Origin: Fimbriosthenelais zetlandica | Taxonomy: Eukaryota | Length of the DNA stretch: 64,000 nt | Direction: 5' to 3' | NCBI GenBank assembly: GCA_977030845.1 | Contig: OZ365110.1 | Span: 48,422,001 to 48,486,000 of the forward strand | Program-made: the position numbers | Shown: one piece after another, positions 12,001 through 36,000 of the stretch | Layout of the letters: every line of letters begins with the position of its first letter | How positions within the stretch are numbered: position 1 is the stretch's first letter

Positions 12001-15000
12001 AATGTAGGTTCTGTGATTTCAGGATCATGTCCAAATGTGATATCACTTGAGGGAAATTCAGCATCGGGAATGTCTGACCTCTTGCCACCCAATCTTCCTT
12101 TTATGCCACCTTCTATTTCTGGAATGTTTTTGACGTCTAGCTTAAAATCACCTTCCTTAATTATATCTGCATCATCAATAACTATTTCTCCCTGTCTATC
12201 ACTAGAAAGTTTGGGCAAAGATATATCAGGACCCCTAACCTTCCATCTGGGGCTTTTACCCTTGACTTTTATATCAGGTTCTTGAAGGTCTACGTCAGGT
12301 TTTCTGGGGGAATCTTTGCTCACTGAAATATCTAGATCTTCTGGGTACGGTTCAGCAGCATATTCATCATCACTAATAGAAACAGTGGGCTTCTTTCTTG
12401 AGAATCTTGGGAGACTGAATGATGGCCCCTTAATTTTCCACTTCCCACCCTTCAACTTTGGGGTTTCACCATCAACGTCAGGTCCTTCAACACTGATGTC
12501 TCCCTCTGGTAGTTCACCTTCAACACTGATGTCAGGCTTTTTGATATCTATGCCAGCTTTGGCACCGTAGGGTTCCTCGACAATGTCCACGTCTCCTACG
12601 CTTATTTCACCTTGGCCTTTACCTCCAAACTTGGGAAGGGAGAAGCTGGGAAGATTGATGCTAGGTCCCTTGAATCTCCACTTACGACCCTGCTTGTCAA
12701 CCTTGATGTCTGGACCTTCGATGTCAGCCTCAACTGGTTCAAATTCTCCCTCAAGTTCAGCGTCTGGGCCTTCAAATTCAGGTTTCTCTATTACAATCTC
12801 ACCCTGAGGCCCCTTACCACCAAACTTGGGAAGGGAGAAGCTGGGAAGATCGATGCTAGGTCCCTTGAATCTCCACTTGCGACCCTGCTTGTCAACTTTG
12901 ATGTCTGGTCCTTCGATGTCAGCCTCAACTGGTTCAAATTCTCCTTCAAGTTCAGCGTCAGGGCCTTCAAATTCTGGTTTCTCTATCACAATCTCACCTT
13001 GAGGTTTCTTGCCACCAAATTTGGGAAGAGAGAAGCTGGGGAGGCCAAAGCTAGGTCCCTTGAATCTCCACTTGCGACCTTTGGTGTCTACCTTTATGTC
13101 TGGTCCCTCTGCGTCAATATCCACAGGCTCAAACTCTCCTTGAAGTTCAGCGTCTGGACCCTCAAATTCAGGCTTCTCTACTTGAACATCAAATTTACCA
13201 CCATAAGGTTCCTGGACAATGTCAACGTCTCCAACAGAGATCTCTCCTTGAGGCTTCTTAGCACCAAACTTGGGAAGAGAAAAGCTGGGAAGATCAATGC
13301 TAGGCCCCTTGAATCTCCACTTGCGACCCTTCTTGTCAACTTTGATGTCTGGACCTTCAATATCAGCTTCCACTGGTTCAAATTCTCCCTCAAGTTCAGC
13401 GTCTGGACCTTCAAATTCTGGTTTCTCTATCACAATCTCACCTTGTGGTTTCTTGCCACCAAACTTGGGAAGAGAGAAGCTGGGGAGATCAATGCTAGGT
13501 CCCTTAAATCTCCACTTACGACCTTTCTTGTCAACTTTGATGTCTGGTCCTTCGATGTCTGCAGACACTGGTTCGAATTCTCCTTCAAGTCCAGCGTCTG
13601 GACCTTCAAATTCTGGTTTCTCTATGTCAATGTCTAGTTTGGCACCGTATGGCTCATGGACTACATCAACGTCACCTACGGCAATCTCTCCTTTTCCTTT
13701 CCTGCCAAACCTAGGAAGAGAGAAGCTTGGACCCTTGATGTGGGGGCCCTTGAATTTCCACTTTCCACCTTTGCCTTTTACTTTAGGTGCTTCTCCGTCA
13801 ATGTCAACGTCAGGTCCTTCAACACTGATGTCTCCCTCTGGTAGTTCACCTTCAACACTAATATCAGGCTTATTGATATCTATGCCAGCCTTTGCACCGT
13901 AGGGTTCCTTGACAATGTCCACGTCTCCTACGCTTATTTCACCTTGGCCTTTACCTCCAAACTTGGGAAGGGAGAAGCTGGGAAGATCGATGCTCGGTCC
14001 CTTGAACCTCCACTTACGACCCTTCTTGTCAACCTTGATGTCTGGACCTTCAATGTCAGCCTCGACTGGTTCAAATTCTCCCTCAAGTTCAGCGTCAGGA
14101 CCTTCAAATTCTGGTTTCTCTATGACAATCTCGCCTTGAGGTTTCTTGCCACCAAACTTGGGAAGTGAGAAGCTGGGGAGATCAATGCTAGGTCCCTTGA
14201 ATCTCCACTTACGACCTTTCTTGTCAACTTTGATATCTGGTCCTTCGATGTCTGCAGACACTGGTTCAAATTCTCCTTCAAGTTCAGCGTCTGGACCTTC
14301 AAATTCTGGTTTCTCTATGTCAACGTCTAGTTTGGCACCGTATGGCTCATGAACTACATCTACATCACCCACTGTGATCTCTCCTTTTCCTTTTCGACCA
14401 AACCTGGGAAGCGAGAAGCTTGGACCCTTGATGTGGGGGCCCTTGAATTTCCACTTTCCACCTTTGCCTTTTACTTTAGGTGCCTCTCCGTCAATATCAA
14501 CGTCAGGTCCTTCAACACTGATGTCTCCCTCTGGTAGTTCACCTTCAACACTAATGTCAGGCTTTTTGATATCTATGCCAGCTTTTCCACCGTAGGGTTC
14601 CTCGACAATGTCCACGTCTCCTACGCTTATTTCACCTTGGCCTTTACCTCCAAACTTGGGAAGGGAGAAGCTGGGGAGATTGATGCTAGGTCCCTTGAAT
14701 CTCCACTTACGACCGTGTTTGTCAACTTTGATGTCTGGACCTTCAATATCAGCCTCAACTGGTTCAAATTCTCCCTCAAGTTTAGCGTCTGGGCCTTCAA
14801 ATTCTGGTTTCTCTATCACAATCTCACCTTGAGGCTTTTTGCCACCAAACTTGGGAAGAGAGAAGCTGGGGAGGCCAAAGCTAGGTCCCTTGAATCTCCA
14901 CTTGCGACCTTTGGTGTCTACCTTTATATCTGGTCCCTCTGCATCAATATCCACAGGCTCAAACTCTCCTTGGAGTTCAGCGTCAGGACCCTCAAATTCA

Positions 15001-33000: not shown

Positions 33001-36000
33001 AACTTAGGAAGGGAGAAGCTAGGAAGATCAAAGCTAGGTCCCTTGAATCTCCACTTACGGCCCTTCTTGTCAACTTTGATGTCTGGACCTTCGATGTCAG
33101 CCTCAACTGGTTCAAATTCTCCCTCAAGTTCAGCGTCTGGACCTTCAAATTCTGGTTTCTCTATCACAATCTCACCCTGAGGTTTCTTGCCACCAAACTT
33201 GGGAAGGGAGAAGCTAGGAAGGTTAATGCTAGGTCCCTTGAATCTCCACTTACGACCTTTCTTGTCAACTTTGATATCAGGACCTTCAATATCTGCAGAC
33301 ACTGGTTCAAATTCTCCTTCAAGATCAGCGTCTGGACCTTCAAATTCAGGCTTTTCCACTGTAACATCTACTTTCGCCCCATATGGCTCATGTACTACAT
33401 CAACATCCCCTACTGTAATCTCTCCCTTTCTTTTCCGTCCGAAACTTGGCAGAGAAAAAGTTGGAGCTTTCCAATGGGGACCTTTAATTCGCCACTTACG
33501 TCCTGAGGAATCGACTTTTATGTCTGATCCTTCTGCTTCTGGATGTACTTCTTCTAATTCTCCTGAATCGCTTCCTTCTGCATGTATTTCAGCTGTGCCC
33601 TCAACCTTTCTCTTTCGCACATGTGGAAGTGAAAAACTTGGCCCTTTTACTTTCAAATTTGGCTCATCAGCATCCACTGAAAGCTCAGCGTCTGAAGGTG
33701 TTCCTGAACTTCCTTTCTTGGCTTTACCTTTTCCAAACGCCCTTGAGATAAATCCAGTTGATTCTTCAACAATTTGTGTATCACCTATAATAAACTCTCC
33801 TTGTTTCCCTCTTGGAATTTTTGCTTTCGGTCCAGTGATATCATCTTCATCATCAGAGATGTTTATATCCACTTCACCTTCTAAACTAGGTAATTCTTCA
33901 CCGTGAAGTTTTATGTCACTCTTTTGCCGTTCAGCTTTTGCAGCTTTTATCTTGGGTTCTGCAGCAATGTCAGGGGATTCTTCTCGATCCAAGTGGATAT
34001 TACCTGAAGTATCTGTTGATGCTGAACTTTTCCTCTTCTTTTCCTTCTTCTTTTTCTTCTTGAAAAGGGAGAACTTTCCACCAGAGGCTTTTCCTTCAGT
34101 CGATGATGCAGTATCAAAATCTAATGACCTGTCTGGTGTTTCAACTTCAAGTGACGTGTCAGGATTCACGCTAGGACTCCTTGATCTGATGGTAACAACC
34201 TTCTCGTAACTAATGGTAGCTTCGCCTTCTGCTGTTTGTTCAGTGACTACACTTATAACCTTTCTATAAGTTTTTGCAACAATTAAATCTTCTTGAACTT
34301 CTGTCGATTCATATGATGCATCTAAATCAGCCGACGCCAACCTACTAGAACGGTCCGTAGAATCTGATTCTGAACGTCTTTTTCTTCTCCTTTCAAGGGT
34401 CCTTGACAATGTCCCTGTCCTTTCCTGAACAACTGATGTATCTCCTAGAACTACTTCTCCCTTGTTTGTAGAAATGGGTAGTTCAAATCCTCTGGAGAGA
34501 CGGTCAGGAGATGTAATGACAATCTTTGGTTTGTCTCCAGCTGATAAACTTCTTCTTTTTCGATCACTACTGCTGCTTCTACTTCGATTGCTACTACTGG
34601 AAGAACTAGATCTGCTTCTTCCTTTGTTTGTCTCCTTTCTTTTCTTATGCTTTTTATCATGTGTATCAACAGATATCTGAGAACTTATGGCCGGATCTTC
34701 TGATTGTGCACCAAACGCAGCTGATACCCCAGGAGATTTTACCTCAAAAGCTGCTGCCCCATGTTCGTCATCTATGTTTGCCGGAGTTTCAATTCTTTCT
34801 TTTGTTACAAAATGTTCGGTAATGTCTCCTGTTGGTATGCCCTCATCAACACGTAAAATTTCTGTTTGTTCTTCTGTTGTTGTCTTCCCGTCCTTTTCTA
34901 ATGTATGTTTTTCTTTTATTACAGAAACAGTGGAGCTTTCCTCTGCTGTACCATCTGGGCCCACTCCAAACTGTGTTAGATCAAGGTCTCCTAGCCCACC
35001 TGAAACCTCAACAACTCTTTTGTGAGATACGTGATGAGTTGTTTCTGTTTTTGAGGTTTCCTCAACGGTCCTGCCAGAAGCTCCAAAAGAGAATCCAGGA
35101 AGGCTTACTTCTCCTTCACCAAAGTGTATGTCGCTGCTGAGGCCAGATGCTTCCCCAGACCCAGTTACTTGTTTTCTCTCAGTGACGATGACGCTCTGCT
35201 CTGATTGACTTGTTATCTCACTTCTTTCTGATTCAGTTTCATATGCTGTGCTACTGCTTGTTATGTGAGAATCAGAGACAGTGTCTGTAGTTGCTCCAAA
35301 TTTGAGCTCCAAGTCATCTGGGTTTACTGAAACACCGAAGGATTCATCTGGAACGGTTACCTTCGAATCAGCTTCGGATGTTTCTTTGAAAGACTCTCCA
35401 CCTGGAAAATATAAAGAGTATTCTTGGTAAGAAGTTAGAACAATTGGCAATGTTTCCTGGTATATCTAACAAAATATATACATAGCATAGAACATTAATA
35501 ATATTAAGGGAGATTAGCTTAACTGAAACAATGAGAACAAAAGGTTGCGTTCAAATCTCTTTTCCATAGTGTTAAATCATATAAATAAATATATTTTACT
35601 TTCTCCCTTTCTCGATTAGGGGCTATCTCCCTCCACTACCTGTTATAATTGATCTAAGTTAATGGATATATTACATTCACACTTGGTCGATTAGGGGCTA
35701 TCTCCCTCCACTACCTGTTAAAACTGATCTAAGTTAATGGATATATTACATTCTCACTTGGTCGATTAGGGGCTATCTCCCTCCACTACCTGTTATAATT
35801 GATCTAAGTTAATGGATTATTATATTACATTCTCACTTGGTCGATTAGGGGCTATCTCCCTCCACTACCTGTTATAATTGATCTAAGTTAATGGATATAT
35901 TACATTCTCACTTGGTCGATTAGGGGCTATCTCCCTCCACTACCTGTTATAATTGATCTAAGTTAATGGATATATTACATTCTCACTTGGTCGATTAGGG

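What the first reader, a model, noticed from the sequence alone, without database searches (positions are those of the whole stretch)
12393..33431. Strict four-module grammar with two higher-order repeat regimes
From the N-terminus the order is (CADAAB)x4 with an exact 1332-bp period (33431-28104), then a D-less transition CAAAAAB (28103-26631), then six units of form CAB-CA(1-3)DA(1-5)B starting at 26630, 23825, 21215, 18815, 16415 and 14390 (first five 2805, 2610, 2400, 2400 and 2025 bp). B is always followed by C (except the last B), D is always flanked by A, and only A varies in copy number. The two adjacent 2400-bp units both end in a short B lacking FKGPH. All indels preserve the frame. 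This records nested unequal crossing-over and suggests functional constraints on module adjacency.
Basis: seen in the sequence. Interest (0 to 1): 0.68.

Follow-up and report, generated by a model that had tools for sequence, protein, structure and literature searches.

The report
Giant AHNAK-like repeat exon on HSPA12
A single 25-kb exon of an invertebrate Hsp70-type (HSPA12) gene encodes 96 near-identical AHNAK-like protein modules in a strict order, which ordinary repeat duplication explains; the new part is that this repeat array is fused to this chaperone.

Summary

The array is the middle of one putative 25,292-nt exon (35401-10110). The exon runs in frame into the start of an HSPA12-type Hsp70 ATPase, and further HSPA12 exons lie downstream. 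The modules resemble vertebrate AHNAK repeats.

All 96 modules differ at nucleotide level, but their proteins are nearly identical. dN/dS is 0.03-0.12, and 55 of 65 third codon positions vary among the A modules. The array is therefore real, old and under purifying selection.

Nearest relatives of each module sit at homologous positions of other units, and the edge modules are the most diverged. Both fit unequal exchange. The adjacency rules follow from in-register exchange and common descent, and two orthologues use different module sets. A functional adjacency constraint is not needed.

The AHNAK-like/HSPA12 fusion looks undescribed.

The parts
10110..35401 (-). Putative giant exon (25,292 nt). 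It encodes an N-terminal non-repeat region, the 96-module array, a linker and the first ~95 residues of the HSPA12-type ATPase.
   Evidence: Open frame 10047-35450. Polypyrimidine tract plus AG at 35403-35402. GTAAGT donor at 10109-10104. Relatives read through into the intron at the same exon end. The splice sites are inferred from sequence, without RNA data.
33426..35401 (-). N-terminal non-repeat region. It is rich in Ser, Lys and Arg and holds two isolated head motifs of the form GE.x.GD..V.E.TG..SR.
   Evidence: Translation. No Pfam family. Head motifs at residues 330 and 550. Conserved islands shared with P0002.
28098..33425 (-). Regime 1: four CADAAB units, each exactly 1332 nt.
   Evidence: Pairwise identity 92.8-96.3%, dS 0.136-0.312, dN/dS 0.03-0.10.
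26625..28097 (-). CAAAAAB segment without D (1473 nt). It holds the near-identical adjacent pair m27/m28.
23820..26624 (-). Regime 2 unit 1: CAB-CAADAAAAAB (2805 nt).
21210..23819 (-). Regime 2 unit 2: CAB-CAAADAAAB (2610 nt).
18810..21209 (-). Regime 2 unit 3: CAB-CAADAAAB (2400 nt). It ends in a short B of 79 residues.
16410..18809 (-). Regime 2 unit 4: CAB-CAAADAAB (2400 nt). It ends in a short B of 79 residues.
14385..16409 (-). Regime 2 unit 5: CAB-CAADAB (2025 nt).
12387..14384 (-). Regime 2 unit 6: CAB-CADAAB (1998 nt). It ends in a diverged B of 75 residues.
10467..12386 (-). Degenerate repeats followed by a non-repeat linker.
   Evidence: No Pfam family. Relatives found: P0002 and P0136, and P0136 alone as a true relative in the 1.84-billion-protein library.
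10110..10466 (-). Start of the HSPA12-type Hsp70 ATPase core, in frame with the array.
   Evidence: 84% identity to a Capitella teleta protein that UniRef names HSPA12B, and 78% to Owenia, Lingula and Lineus proteins. tblastn.
7319..7540 (-). HSPA12 core exon.
   Evidence: tblastn of P0016 and P0021 against the window.
6837..7052 (-). HSPA12 core exon with a Pro/Ser/Thr-rich stretch.
3889..4038 (-). HSPA12 core exon.
3426..3629 (-). HSPA12 core exon.
1207..1311 (-). Weak match to the next HSPA12 core exon. The gene then runs off the window start.
   Evidence: E 5e-4 and 3e-5.

Best explanation
**What it is.** The region is the central repeat domain (7,013 codons, 96 modules) of one putative 25.3-kb exon. 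The gene is a lophotrochozoan, probably annelid, HSPA12A-type Hsp70 gene.

**The modules.** All four classes are variants of one AHNAK-like unit. The unit has an acidic stretch of alternating charge, followed by a basic, aromatic tail (K-W-[KR]-F-K-G-P ... S-F-S-L-P-[KR]-F).
- B, C and D carry an 18-residue head (GE.x.GDVD.V.EPYG...).
- A is the same unit without the head.
- C is a head plus an A body.

**How the order arose (inferred).** The array grew from one ancestral six-module unit in which the three A positions were already distinct.
1. Whole-unit, in-register unequal exchange gave the 1332-nt period.
2. Loss of D in one copy gave CAB, and a two-segment unit was then duplicated.
3. One-module misalignments within A runs changed the A number.

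In-register exchange cannot make new neighbour pairs, so the grammar is inherited rather than selected.

**Shown.** Each module's protein sequence is under strong purifying selection while synonymous sites have drifted far apart. The array is therefore translated and old.

**Inferred function.** The array is a long, non-globular polyampholyte scaffold that works like the AHNAK central repeat domain. Its repeated basic-aromatic patches suit membrane or cytoskeleton binding. It tethers or concentrates the Hsp70-like ATPase encoded after it.
For: **Structure.** Module string and coordinates. Six neighbour pairs only. Exact 1332-nt units.

**Real and selected.**
- 96 of 96 modules are distinct at nucleotide level, with no identical pair.
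- Distinct protein sequences number only 27 of 52 A, 15 of 17 B, 7 of 17 C and 7 of 10 D.
- Nei-Gojobori dS/dN: A 0.438/0.018, B 0.195/0.024, C 0.319/0.010, D 0.120/0.008.
- Variable sites by codon position for A are 7, 8 and 55, of 65 each.

**Exchange history.**
- Nearest neighbours lie at homologous unit positions, and adjacent A pairs are 99.5% and 98.5% identical.
- Edge modules are the most diverged.
- The C body is as close to A bodies (mean 0.894) as A bodies are to each other (0.914).
- A modules track their right neighbour on a tree built without the tail columns: 7 changes against a shuffle mean of 22.5, with 0 of 500 shuffles as low. They do not track the regime: 9 against 11.0, with 33 of 500 as low.

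**Gene identity.**
- The exon runs in frame into an HSPA12 core.
- The donor position is shared with relatives.
- P0002 and P0136 have the same array-linker-HSPA12 layout.

**AHNAK likeness.**
- 29% identity across a 444-residue unit, E 2e-45.
- Single modules score 41.6-43.5 bits against 13 vertebrate AHNAK/AHNAK2 proteins. Shuffled modules average 20 bits with a maximum of 25-29, and 0 of 100 reach the real score for any of the four classes.
- The nearest Atlas clusters are chordate AHNAK fragments, at 0.91 and 0.90.
- Composition is similar, and charge is segregated within each module.
Against: - There is no RNA, protein or population data, so exon limits, inclusion of the exon and A-number polymorphism are all untested.
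- The exchange logic does not explain why no segment holds two D modules (0 of 17).
- Tree labels are shared by kin, so one search shows inheritance of context. It does not show that selection is absent.
- The closest transcript-derived relative (P0016, 665 residues) and the Capitella model (678 residues) have only 56-74 residues before the core. A short isoform without the array may exist here too.
- The structural reading has no support from the fold prediction (mean pLDDT 33.6, single sequence).
- A crude test found no period-2 or period-7 hydrophobic signal.
- The function rests on likeness to AHNAK alone.
Confidence: 0.72

Rival explanations
1. The adjacency rules are kept by selection. 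B must be followed by C and D must sit between A modules, because neighbouring modules work together.
For: - There are 0 violations among 95 junctions.
- 0 of 17 segments hold two D modules.
- Position-specific A subtypes persist across both regimes.
- The A before a B is the 64-residue form in 17 of 17 cases.
- Purifying selection on the modules is strong.
Against: - In-register exchange cannot create new neighbour pairs, so the rules hold without selection (logic).
- The orthologues use other grammars. P0136 has only B-like modules of 92-94 residues in three main subtypes. P0002 has a 124+103+103 unit. Neither has a headless module.
- The subtype-context link is what common descent predicts.
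Confidence: 0.15
2. The array order or copy number is an assembly artefact.
For: Long tandem arrays are often misassembled, and no reads were available here.
Against: - No two of the 96 modules are identical. The closest pair differs, and the mean A-A identity is 92%. Copies can therefore be told apart.
- A frame stays open over 25.4 kb with no N.
- Differences fall overwhelmingly at third codon positions. Assembly or consensus errors would not do this.
Confidence: 0.04
3. The array and the HSPA12 ATPase are mostly separate products. An internal promoter or internal splicing gives a short HSPA12, and the array-bearing form is rare or absent.
For: The best transcript-derived relative is a complete 665-residue ORF with 56 residues before the core, and the Capitella model has 74. 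In-frame Met codons lie about 60 residues upstream of the core in the window.
Against: The array and the core start lie in one uninterrupted frame in the window and in two independent contigs. The array's dN/dS of 0.03-0.12 shows that it is translated in this frame.
Confidence: 0.12
4. The near-identity of the proteins comes mainly from recent gene conversion (concerted evolution), not from purifying selection on old copies.
For: - Arrays in the three species have turned over completely.
- The similarity matrices are mosaic.
- Edge modules diverge most.
Against: Conversion homogenises synonymous and non-synonymous sites alike. Here synonymous divergence is 0.12-0.44 while non-synonymous divergence is 0.008-0.024.
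Confidence: 0.08

Closest known systems
AHNAK / AHNAK2 (vertebrate giant scaffold proteins)
   Same: - Both have a giant exon encoding thousands of residues of tandem repeat units rich in K, D/E, G and P. The passages read in review PMC10682155 give about 128-residue units for AHNAK and 165-residue units for AHNAK2.
- Single modules align to AHNAK repeats at 35-38% identity, well above shuffled controls.
- They share a core motif: GPD..D, a basic stretch, then F+.PS..LP..S.P.F.
   Different: - No PDZ-coding exon was found in the window.
- The AHNAK C-terminal domain is replaced by an HSPA12 ATPase.
- The 18-residue head motif occurs 46 times here and in 0 of 13 vertebrate AHNAK/AHNAK2 proteins.
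- Module lengths are 64-84 residues.
- The host is a protostome.
HSPA12A / HSPA12B (atypical Hsp70 family)
   Same: - The first core exon is 84% identical to a Capitella protein that UniRef names HSPA12B, and about 80% identical to reptile HSPA12B.
- Five further core exons map in order.
- The exon end is shared with relatives.
   Different: - Known and predicted relatives have 56 to about 1214 residues before the core. 0 of 24 named relatives checked carry the head motif or GP repeats.
- Here 8,357 residues precede the core.
Super-repeats of nebulin and titin, and higher-order repeats of satellite DNA (recalled, not tested here)
   Same: Several module types occur in a fixed order and are repeated as a larger unit. 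Growth is by in-register unequal exchange, and array edges are more diverged.
   Different: - This array is coding and sits in one exon.
- It has two successive higher-order regimes.
- One module class varies in number.
Polyubiquitin genes (recalled, not tested here)
   Same: Tandem coding repeats have near-identical protein sequence but diverged synonymous sites, explained by strong purifying selection.
   Different: The modules here are not cleaved into a known functional monomer, and there are 96 of them in four classes.

Membership tests
AHNAK family | Giant exon encoding a central domain of tandem repeat units. | tested here: met
   Putative exon 35401-10110 with 96 modules. Family features come from passages of PMC10682155.
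AHNAK family | Repeat-unit sequence similarity to AHNAK central repeats. | tested here: met
   BLASTP gives 29% identity and E 2e-45 over a 444-residue unit. Single modules score 41.6-43.5 bits against a shuffle maximum of 25-29, with 0 of 100 shuffles reaching the real score. Atlas scores are 0.91 and 0.90. Convergence cannot be ruled out.
AHNAK family | N-terminal PDZ domain. | tested here: not met
   Pfam finds nothing in the N-terminal 675 residues. tblastn with 3 AHNAK/AHNAK2 N-termini finds no match in the window better than E 5.6. A 5' exon outside the window cannot be excluded.
AHNAK family | AHNAK-type C-terminal domain of about 1000 residues. | tested here: not met
   The array is followed by a linker and an HSPA12 core.
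HSPA12 (atypical Hsp70) | Sequence of the ATPase core. | tested here: met
   1452 relatives at E <= 0.001. The best named ones are HSPA12A/B of annelids, a brachiopod, a nemertean, arthropods and reptiles, at 74-86% identity over the first core exon. Core exons map in order up to residue ~440-450 of ~670.
HSPA12 (atypical Hsp70) | Complete ATPase plus C-terminal domain. | tested here: inconclusive
   The gene runs off the window start. Pfam HSP70 did not match the first-exon piece.
Higher-order tandem repeat arrays evolving by unequal exchange | A multi-module unit repeated in register, with the closest relatives at homologous positions of other units. | tested here: met
Higher-order tandem repeat arrays evolving by unequal exchange | Copy-number polymorphism between haplotypes or individuals. 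| not testable with these tools
   No reads or second haplotype were available.

The most novel reading that the evidence does not exclude
AHNAK-type repeat scaffolds are not a vertebrate invention. A lophotrochozoan lineage, seen in three independent contigs, carries a multi-kilobase AHNAK-like array fused in frame to the conserved HSPA12A-type ATPase. Every one of its 96 modules is held under strong purifying selection. Either the AHNAK central repeat shares ancestry with the N-terminal extension of an ancient HSPA12 gene, or the same sequence solution arose twice. Either way, it defines a new class of giant, scaffold-tethered Hsp70-like chaperone.
Probability: 0.25. Interest if true: 0.7.

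Novelty: new variant of a known kind. Interest (0 to 1): 0.5.

Why it matters
- **A natural record of array growth.** Because synonymous sites have diverged, every one of the 96 modules can be told apart. The history of unit duplications, one-module slippage and module loss can then be read from a single sequence.
- **Near-identical protein repeats can be old.** They can be individually constrained (dN/dS 0.03-0.12) rather than recent.
- **An unexpected architecture.** An AHNAK-like scaffold is joined to an HSPA12 ATPase in a protostome. This bears on the origin of AHNAK repeats and on the little-known function of HSPA12 proteins. It also warns that the 'AHNAK' labels used as markers in invertebrate single-cell studies may refer to genes of this kind. 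Passages from an earthworm paper and a crayfish paper give no sequence analysis.

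Tried and rejected
- **Pfam.** No credible family was found in the N-terminal region, one CADAAB unit or the linker plus core start. The only row was a sub-threshold HTH_17 match (20.7 bits against a cut-off of 27).
- **PDB by sequence.** No match at E <= 1 for one unit.
- **AlphaFold2.** One unit folded without an alignment gave mean pLDDT 33.6 and pTM 0.17, which is uninformative. No fold search was run on it.
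- **Hydrophobic periodicity.** I guessed from memory at a heptad or beta-strand pattern like AHNAK's. No signal appeared at period 7 or 2 in any of the four module classes (z <= 0.2). The idea was dropped.
- **Other relatives checked for the array.** 0 of 24 named HSPA12-like relatives of up to 2000 residues have the head motif or GP repeats.
- **Exhaustive profile-free search with the 661-residue linker.** It found one true relative (P0136) and one spurious repetitive protein (P0137) among 1.84 billion representatives.
- **PDZ exon.** None was found in the window.
- **Rest of the window.** 13 other ORFs of at least 100 residues have no Pfam family, and there is no Rfam match.
- **Literature.**
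  - 'AHNAK' plus 'HSPA12': 24 papers hold both terms. The 10 listed are human or mouse omics papers and reviews by title.
  - 'HSPA12' plus 'annelid': 3 papers, none on a giant form in the passages read.
  - So I found no description of the fusion. Most subscription journals are not in the library.
- **Atlas.** The first call failed with a machine error and was repeated once, as the tool advised.
- **Shuffle test and exchange simulation.** The closure argument therefore stands as logic only.
- **Not available or not run.**
  - The genome collection holds only bacteria and archaea and was not used.
  - The DNA of the P0002 and P0136 loci, and so between-species dS, stayed unchecked.
  - No complex prediction was run.

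Full report
**1. What is in the window**

The window has no N. Only one long reading frame stands out: 10047-35450 on the minus strand, 8467 codons. GC is 46-47% across it and 37-41% on either side.

Its translation has four parts:
- a Ser/Lys/Arg-rich non-repeat N-terminal region;
- about 7,000 residues of near-identical repeats;
- a non-repeat linker;
- the sequence [12 protein letters not shown]..., the start of an Hsp70-type ATPase.

I do not take the contig for human. Its nearest named relatives are annelid, brachiopod and nemertean proteins.

**2. Check of the observation**

I cut the protein at every FSLP[KR]F anchor (96 of them) and classed each piece by a signature near its start.
- CADAAB four times;
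- CAAAAAB;
- CAB-CAADAAAAAB, CAB-CAAADAAAB, CAB-CAADAAAB, CAB-CAAADAAB, CAB-CAADAB, CAB-CADAAB.

| Item | Size |
|---|---|
| Module A | 65 or 64 residues |
| Modules C and D | 83 residues |
| Module B | 84 residues (two of 79, the last of 75) |
| Each of the four first units | 1332 nt exactly |
| The six later units | 2805, 2610, 2400, 2400, 2025, 1998 nt |

Only six neighbour pairs occur: AA 25, CA 17, AB 17, BC 16, AD 10, DA 10.

Tandem Repeats Finder finds periods of 195 and 444 nt on its own. Autocorrelation peaks at 1332, 2664 and 3996 nt (0.953, 0.950, 0.928) in the first part, and at 195, 693, 2400, 2610 and 2805 nt in the second. The background is 0.245.

The final B lacks it too. The two units are not simple copies of each other, because D sits one A later in the second.

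**3.

- The A before a B is the 64-residue GGKGQ form in 17 of 17 cases. Of the 10 A modules before a D, 4 end in KKHQ.
- B also has positional subtypes. All 6 B modules of the CAB segments read GEAP...FKGPHIKGP. Of the 6 B modules that close the long segments of regime 2, only m87 does.
- C is an 18-residue head plus an A body. C bodies are as close to A bodies (mean 0.894 nucleotide identity) as A bodies are to each other (0.914). D bodies are distinct (0.81).
- I built a tree of the 52 A modules without the tail columns:

| Label on the tree | Changes observed | Shuffle mean | Shuffles as low |
|---|---|---|---|
| Right neighbour | 7 | 22.5 | 0 of 500 |
| Left neighbour | 15 | 22.6 | 0 of 500 |
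| Regime | 9 | 11.0 | 33 of 500 |

The three A positions of a six-module unit were therefore already different before the array split into two regimes. Kin share labels, so this result shows inheritance, not selection.

**4. The array is real, old and selected**

No two of the 96 modules are identical in nucleotides. Yet there are only 27 distinct A proteins among 52, 15 of 17 B, 7 of 17 C and 7 of 10 D.

| Class | dS | dN | dN/dS |
|---|---|---|---|
| A | 0.438 | 0.018 | 0.04 |
| B | 0.195 | 0.024 | 0.12 |
| C | 0.319 | 0.010 | 0.03 |
| D | 0.120 | 0.008 | 0.07 |

These are pairwise Nei-Gojobori values. The four 1332-nt units differ by dS 0.136-0.312.

Among the A modules, 7, 8 and 55 of 65 first, second and third codon positions vary. 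Assembly errors would not fall on third positions, and a 25-kb frame would not stay open by chance. Gene conversion alone would homogenise synonymous sites too.

**5. How the order arose**

- The nearest nucleotide relative of a module usually lies at the homologous position of another unit. Offsets are 6 or 12 modules in regime 1 and 11-13 or 22-25 in regime 2.
- In the two longest A runs, adjacent A modules are each other's closest relatives: m27/m28 at 99.5% and m41/m42 at 98.5%. This marks recent one-module duplications.
- The edge modules are the most diverged: m1 at 86-88%, m96 at 80-85%, and also m91. This is expected for arrays homogenised by unequal exchange (recalled theory).

The neighbour rules then follow without selection. 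An exchange between two modules of one class, in register, joins the left context of one to the right context of the other. It cannot create a new neighbour pair, and an A run can never fall to zero. A is also the only class adjacent to itself. This is a logical argument; the simulation that would have illustrated it was not run.

It does not explain why no segment has two D modules (0 of 17).

**6. What gene this is**

- A polypyrimidine tract and AG at 35403-35402, and a GTAAGT donor at 10109-10104, bound a putative exon of 25,292 nt. No Met lies near its start, so at least one 5' exon is missing. I did not find it.
- The last 97 residues of the exon match HSPA12-type proteins. There are 1452 relatives at E <= 0.001. 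Identity is 84% to a Capitella teleta protein that UniRef names HSPA12B, and 78% to Owenia, Lingula and Lineus proteins.
- Relatives read into the intron at the same point.
- tblastn of two relatives maps further core exons at 7319-7540, 6837-7052, 3889-4038, 3426-3629 and, weakly, 1207-1311. The gene then leaves the window.
- I searched exon by exon.

**7. Relatives with the same layout**

- Searching the linker among giant proteins found P0002 (4785 residues, 47% identity) and vertebrate AHNAK proteins.
- Among shorter proteins it found only P0136 (3596 residues, E 3.5e-147).
- An exhaustive scan of 1.84 billion representatives found only P0136 and one spurious hit.
- Both relatives show array, linker and HSPA12 start in one frame.

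Their arrays differ from this one:
- P0136 has only B-like modules of 92-94 residues, in three main subtypes.
- P0002 has a 124+103+103-residue unit.
- Neither has a headless module.

B is the module best conserved between species: 50 of 95 aligned positions match a P0136 module, against 25 of 66 for A. No adjacency rule is therefore conserved, and the headless A looks like a novelty of this lineage.

0 of 24 named HSPA12-like relatives of up to 2000 residues have the head motif or GP repeats.

**8. Likeness to AHNAK**

- One 444-residue unit aligns to Bufo AHNAK repeats at 29% identity, E 2e-45.
- Single modules score 41.6-43.5 bits (35-38% identity) against 13 vertebrate AHNAK/AHNAK2 proteins. 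Shuffled modules average 20 bits with a maximum of 25-29, and 0 of 100 reach the real score for any of the four classes.
- The nearest Atlas clusters are chordate AHNAK fragments, at 0.91 and 0.90. These are weak-to-moderate scores by the tool's own guide.
- Composition is alike. Each module has an acidic alternating part and a basic aromatic tail. There is exactly one Trp per module, and no Cys or Met in 7,013 residues.

Against family membership:
- No PDZ domain was found in the window.
- There is no AHNAK C-terminal domain.
- The head motif is absent from 13 of 13 vertebrate proteins.

The AHNAK family features are taken from passages of PMC10682155.

**9. Function (inferred)**

The array most likely forms a long, non-globular, charge-patterned scaffold that works like the AHNAK central domain and carries an Hsp70-like ATPase at its end. 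I have no direct evidence for this. The fold prediction was uninformative, no solved structure matches by sequence, and no heptad signal was found.

A short isoform without the array is possible, since the closest transcript-derived relative has only 56 residues before the core.

**10. Literature**

I found no paper on an AHNAK-like/HSPA12 fusion.
- 24 papers hold both terms. The 10 listed are human or mouse omics papers and reviews by title.
- 3 papers hold 'HSPA12' and 'annelid'. I read passages of one.
- An earthworm paper and a crayfish paper use 'AHNAK' only as a marker label in the passages read.

Supplements are closed, and most subscription journals are not in the library.

**11. Verdict**

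The unequal-exchange reading is supported, and the functional-adjacency reading is not needed.

The module grammar is an ordinary, though unusually clean, higher-order coding repeat. The gene architecture around it is the more novel result.

Noticed in passing
window 35591-36626: A 75-bp tandem repeat (13.7 copies, 94% matches, also scored at period 229) lies in the putative intron just upstream of the giant exon.
   Followed up: no
window 11635-33906, + strand: Sixteen antisense ORFs of 188-547 residues overlap the array. They recur with the repeat and are most likely by-products of a stop-poor repeated sequence, not genes.
   Followed up: no
window 12387-33425, - strand: The 7,013-residue array has exactly one Trp per module (96 in all) and no Cys or Met. 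Each module has an acidic alternating part and a basic aromatic tail.
   Followed up: partly
window 33426-35401 and 10467-12386, - strand: Isolated copies of the head motif occur outside the array, in the N-terminal region and the linker. They are extended by TG..SR and a Lys/Arg run, the form that every repeat of P0002 carries. This may be the ancestral form of the head.
   Followed up: partly
window 14385-14636, - strand (module m87): This B closes a long segment but has the GEAP...HIKGP signature of the CAB-type B. This suggests an exchange or conversion between the two B positions.
   Followed up: no
window 6837-7052 and 5617-5886, - strand: The HSPA12 core exon at 6837-7052 carries a Pro/Ser/Thr-rich stretch and is only 46-60% identical to relatives. 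A similar Pro/Ser/Thr-rich open frame lies at 5617-5886 and could be an extra or alternative exon.
   Followed up: no
window 16410-16646, 18810-19046 and 12387-12611, - strand: The 5-residue deletion in the short B modules removes one of two adjacent x-KGP mini-repeats. P0136 modules carry three such mini-repeats and A modules one, so slippage also acts at the 4-5 residue scale. m67 and m78 are not each other's nearest relatives (93% identity), so a shared origin for the deletion is uncertain.
   Followed up: partly
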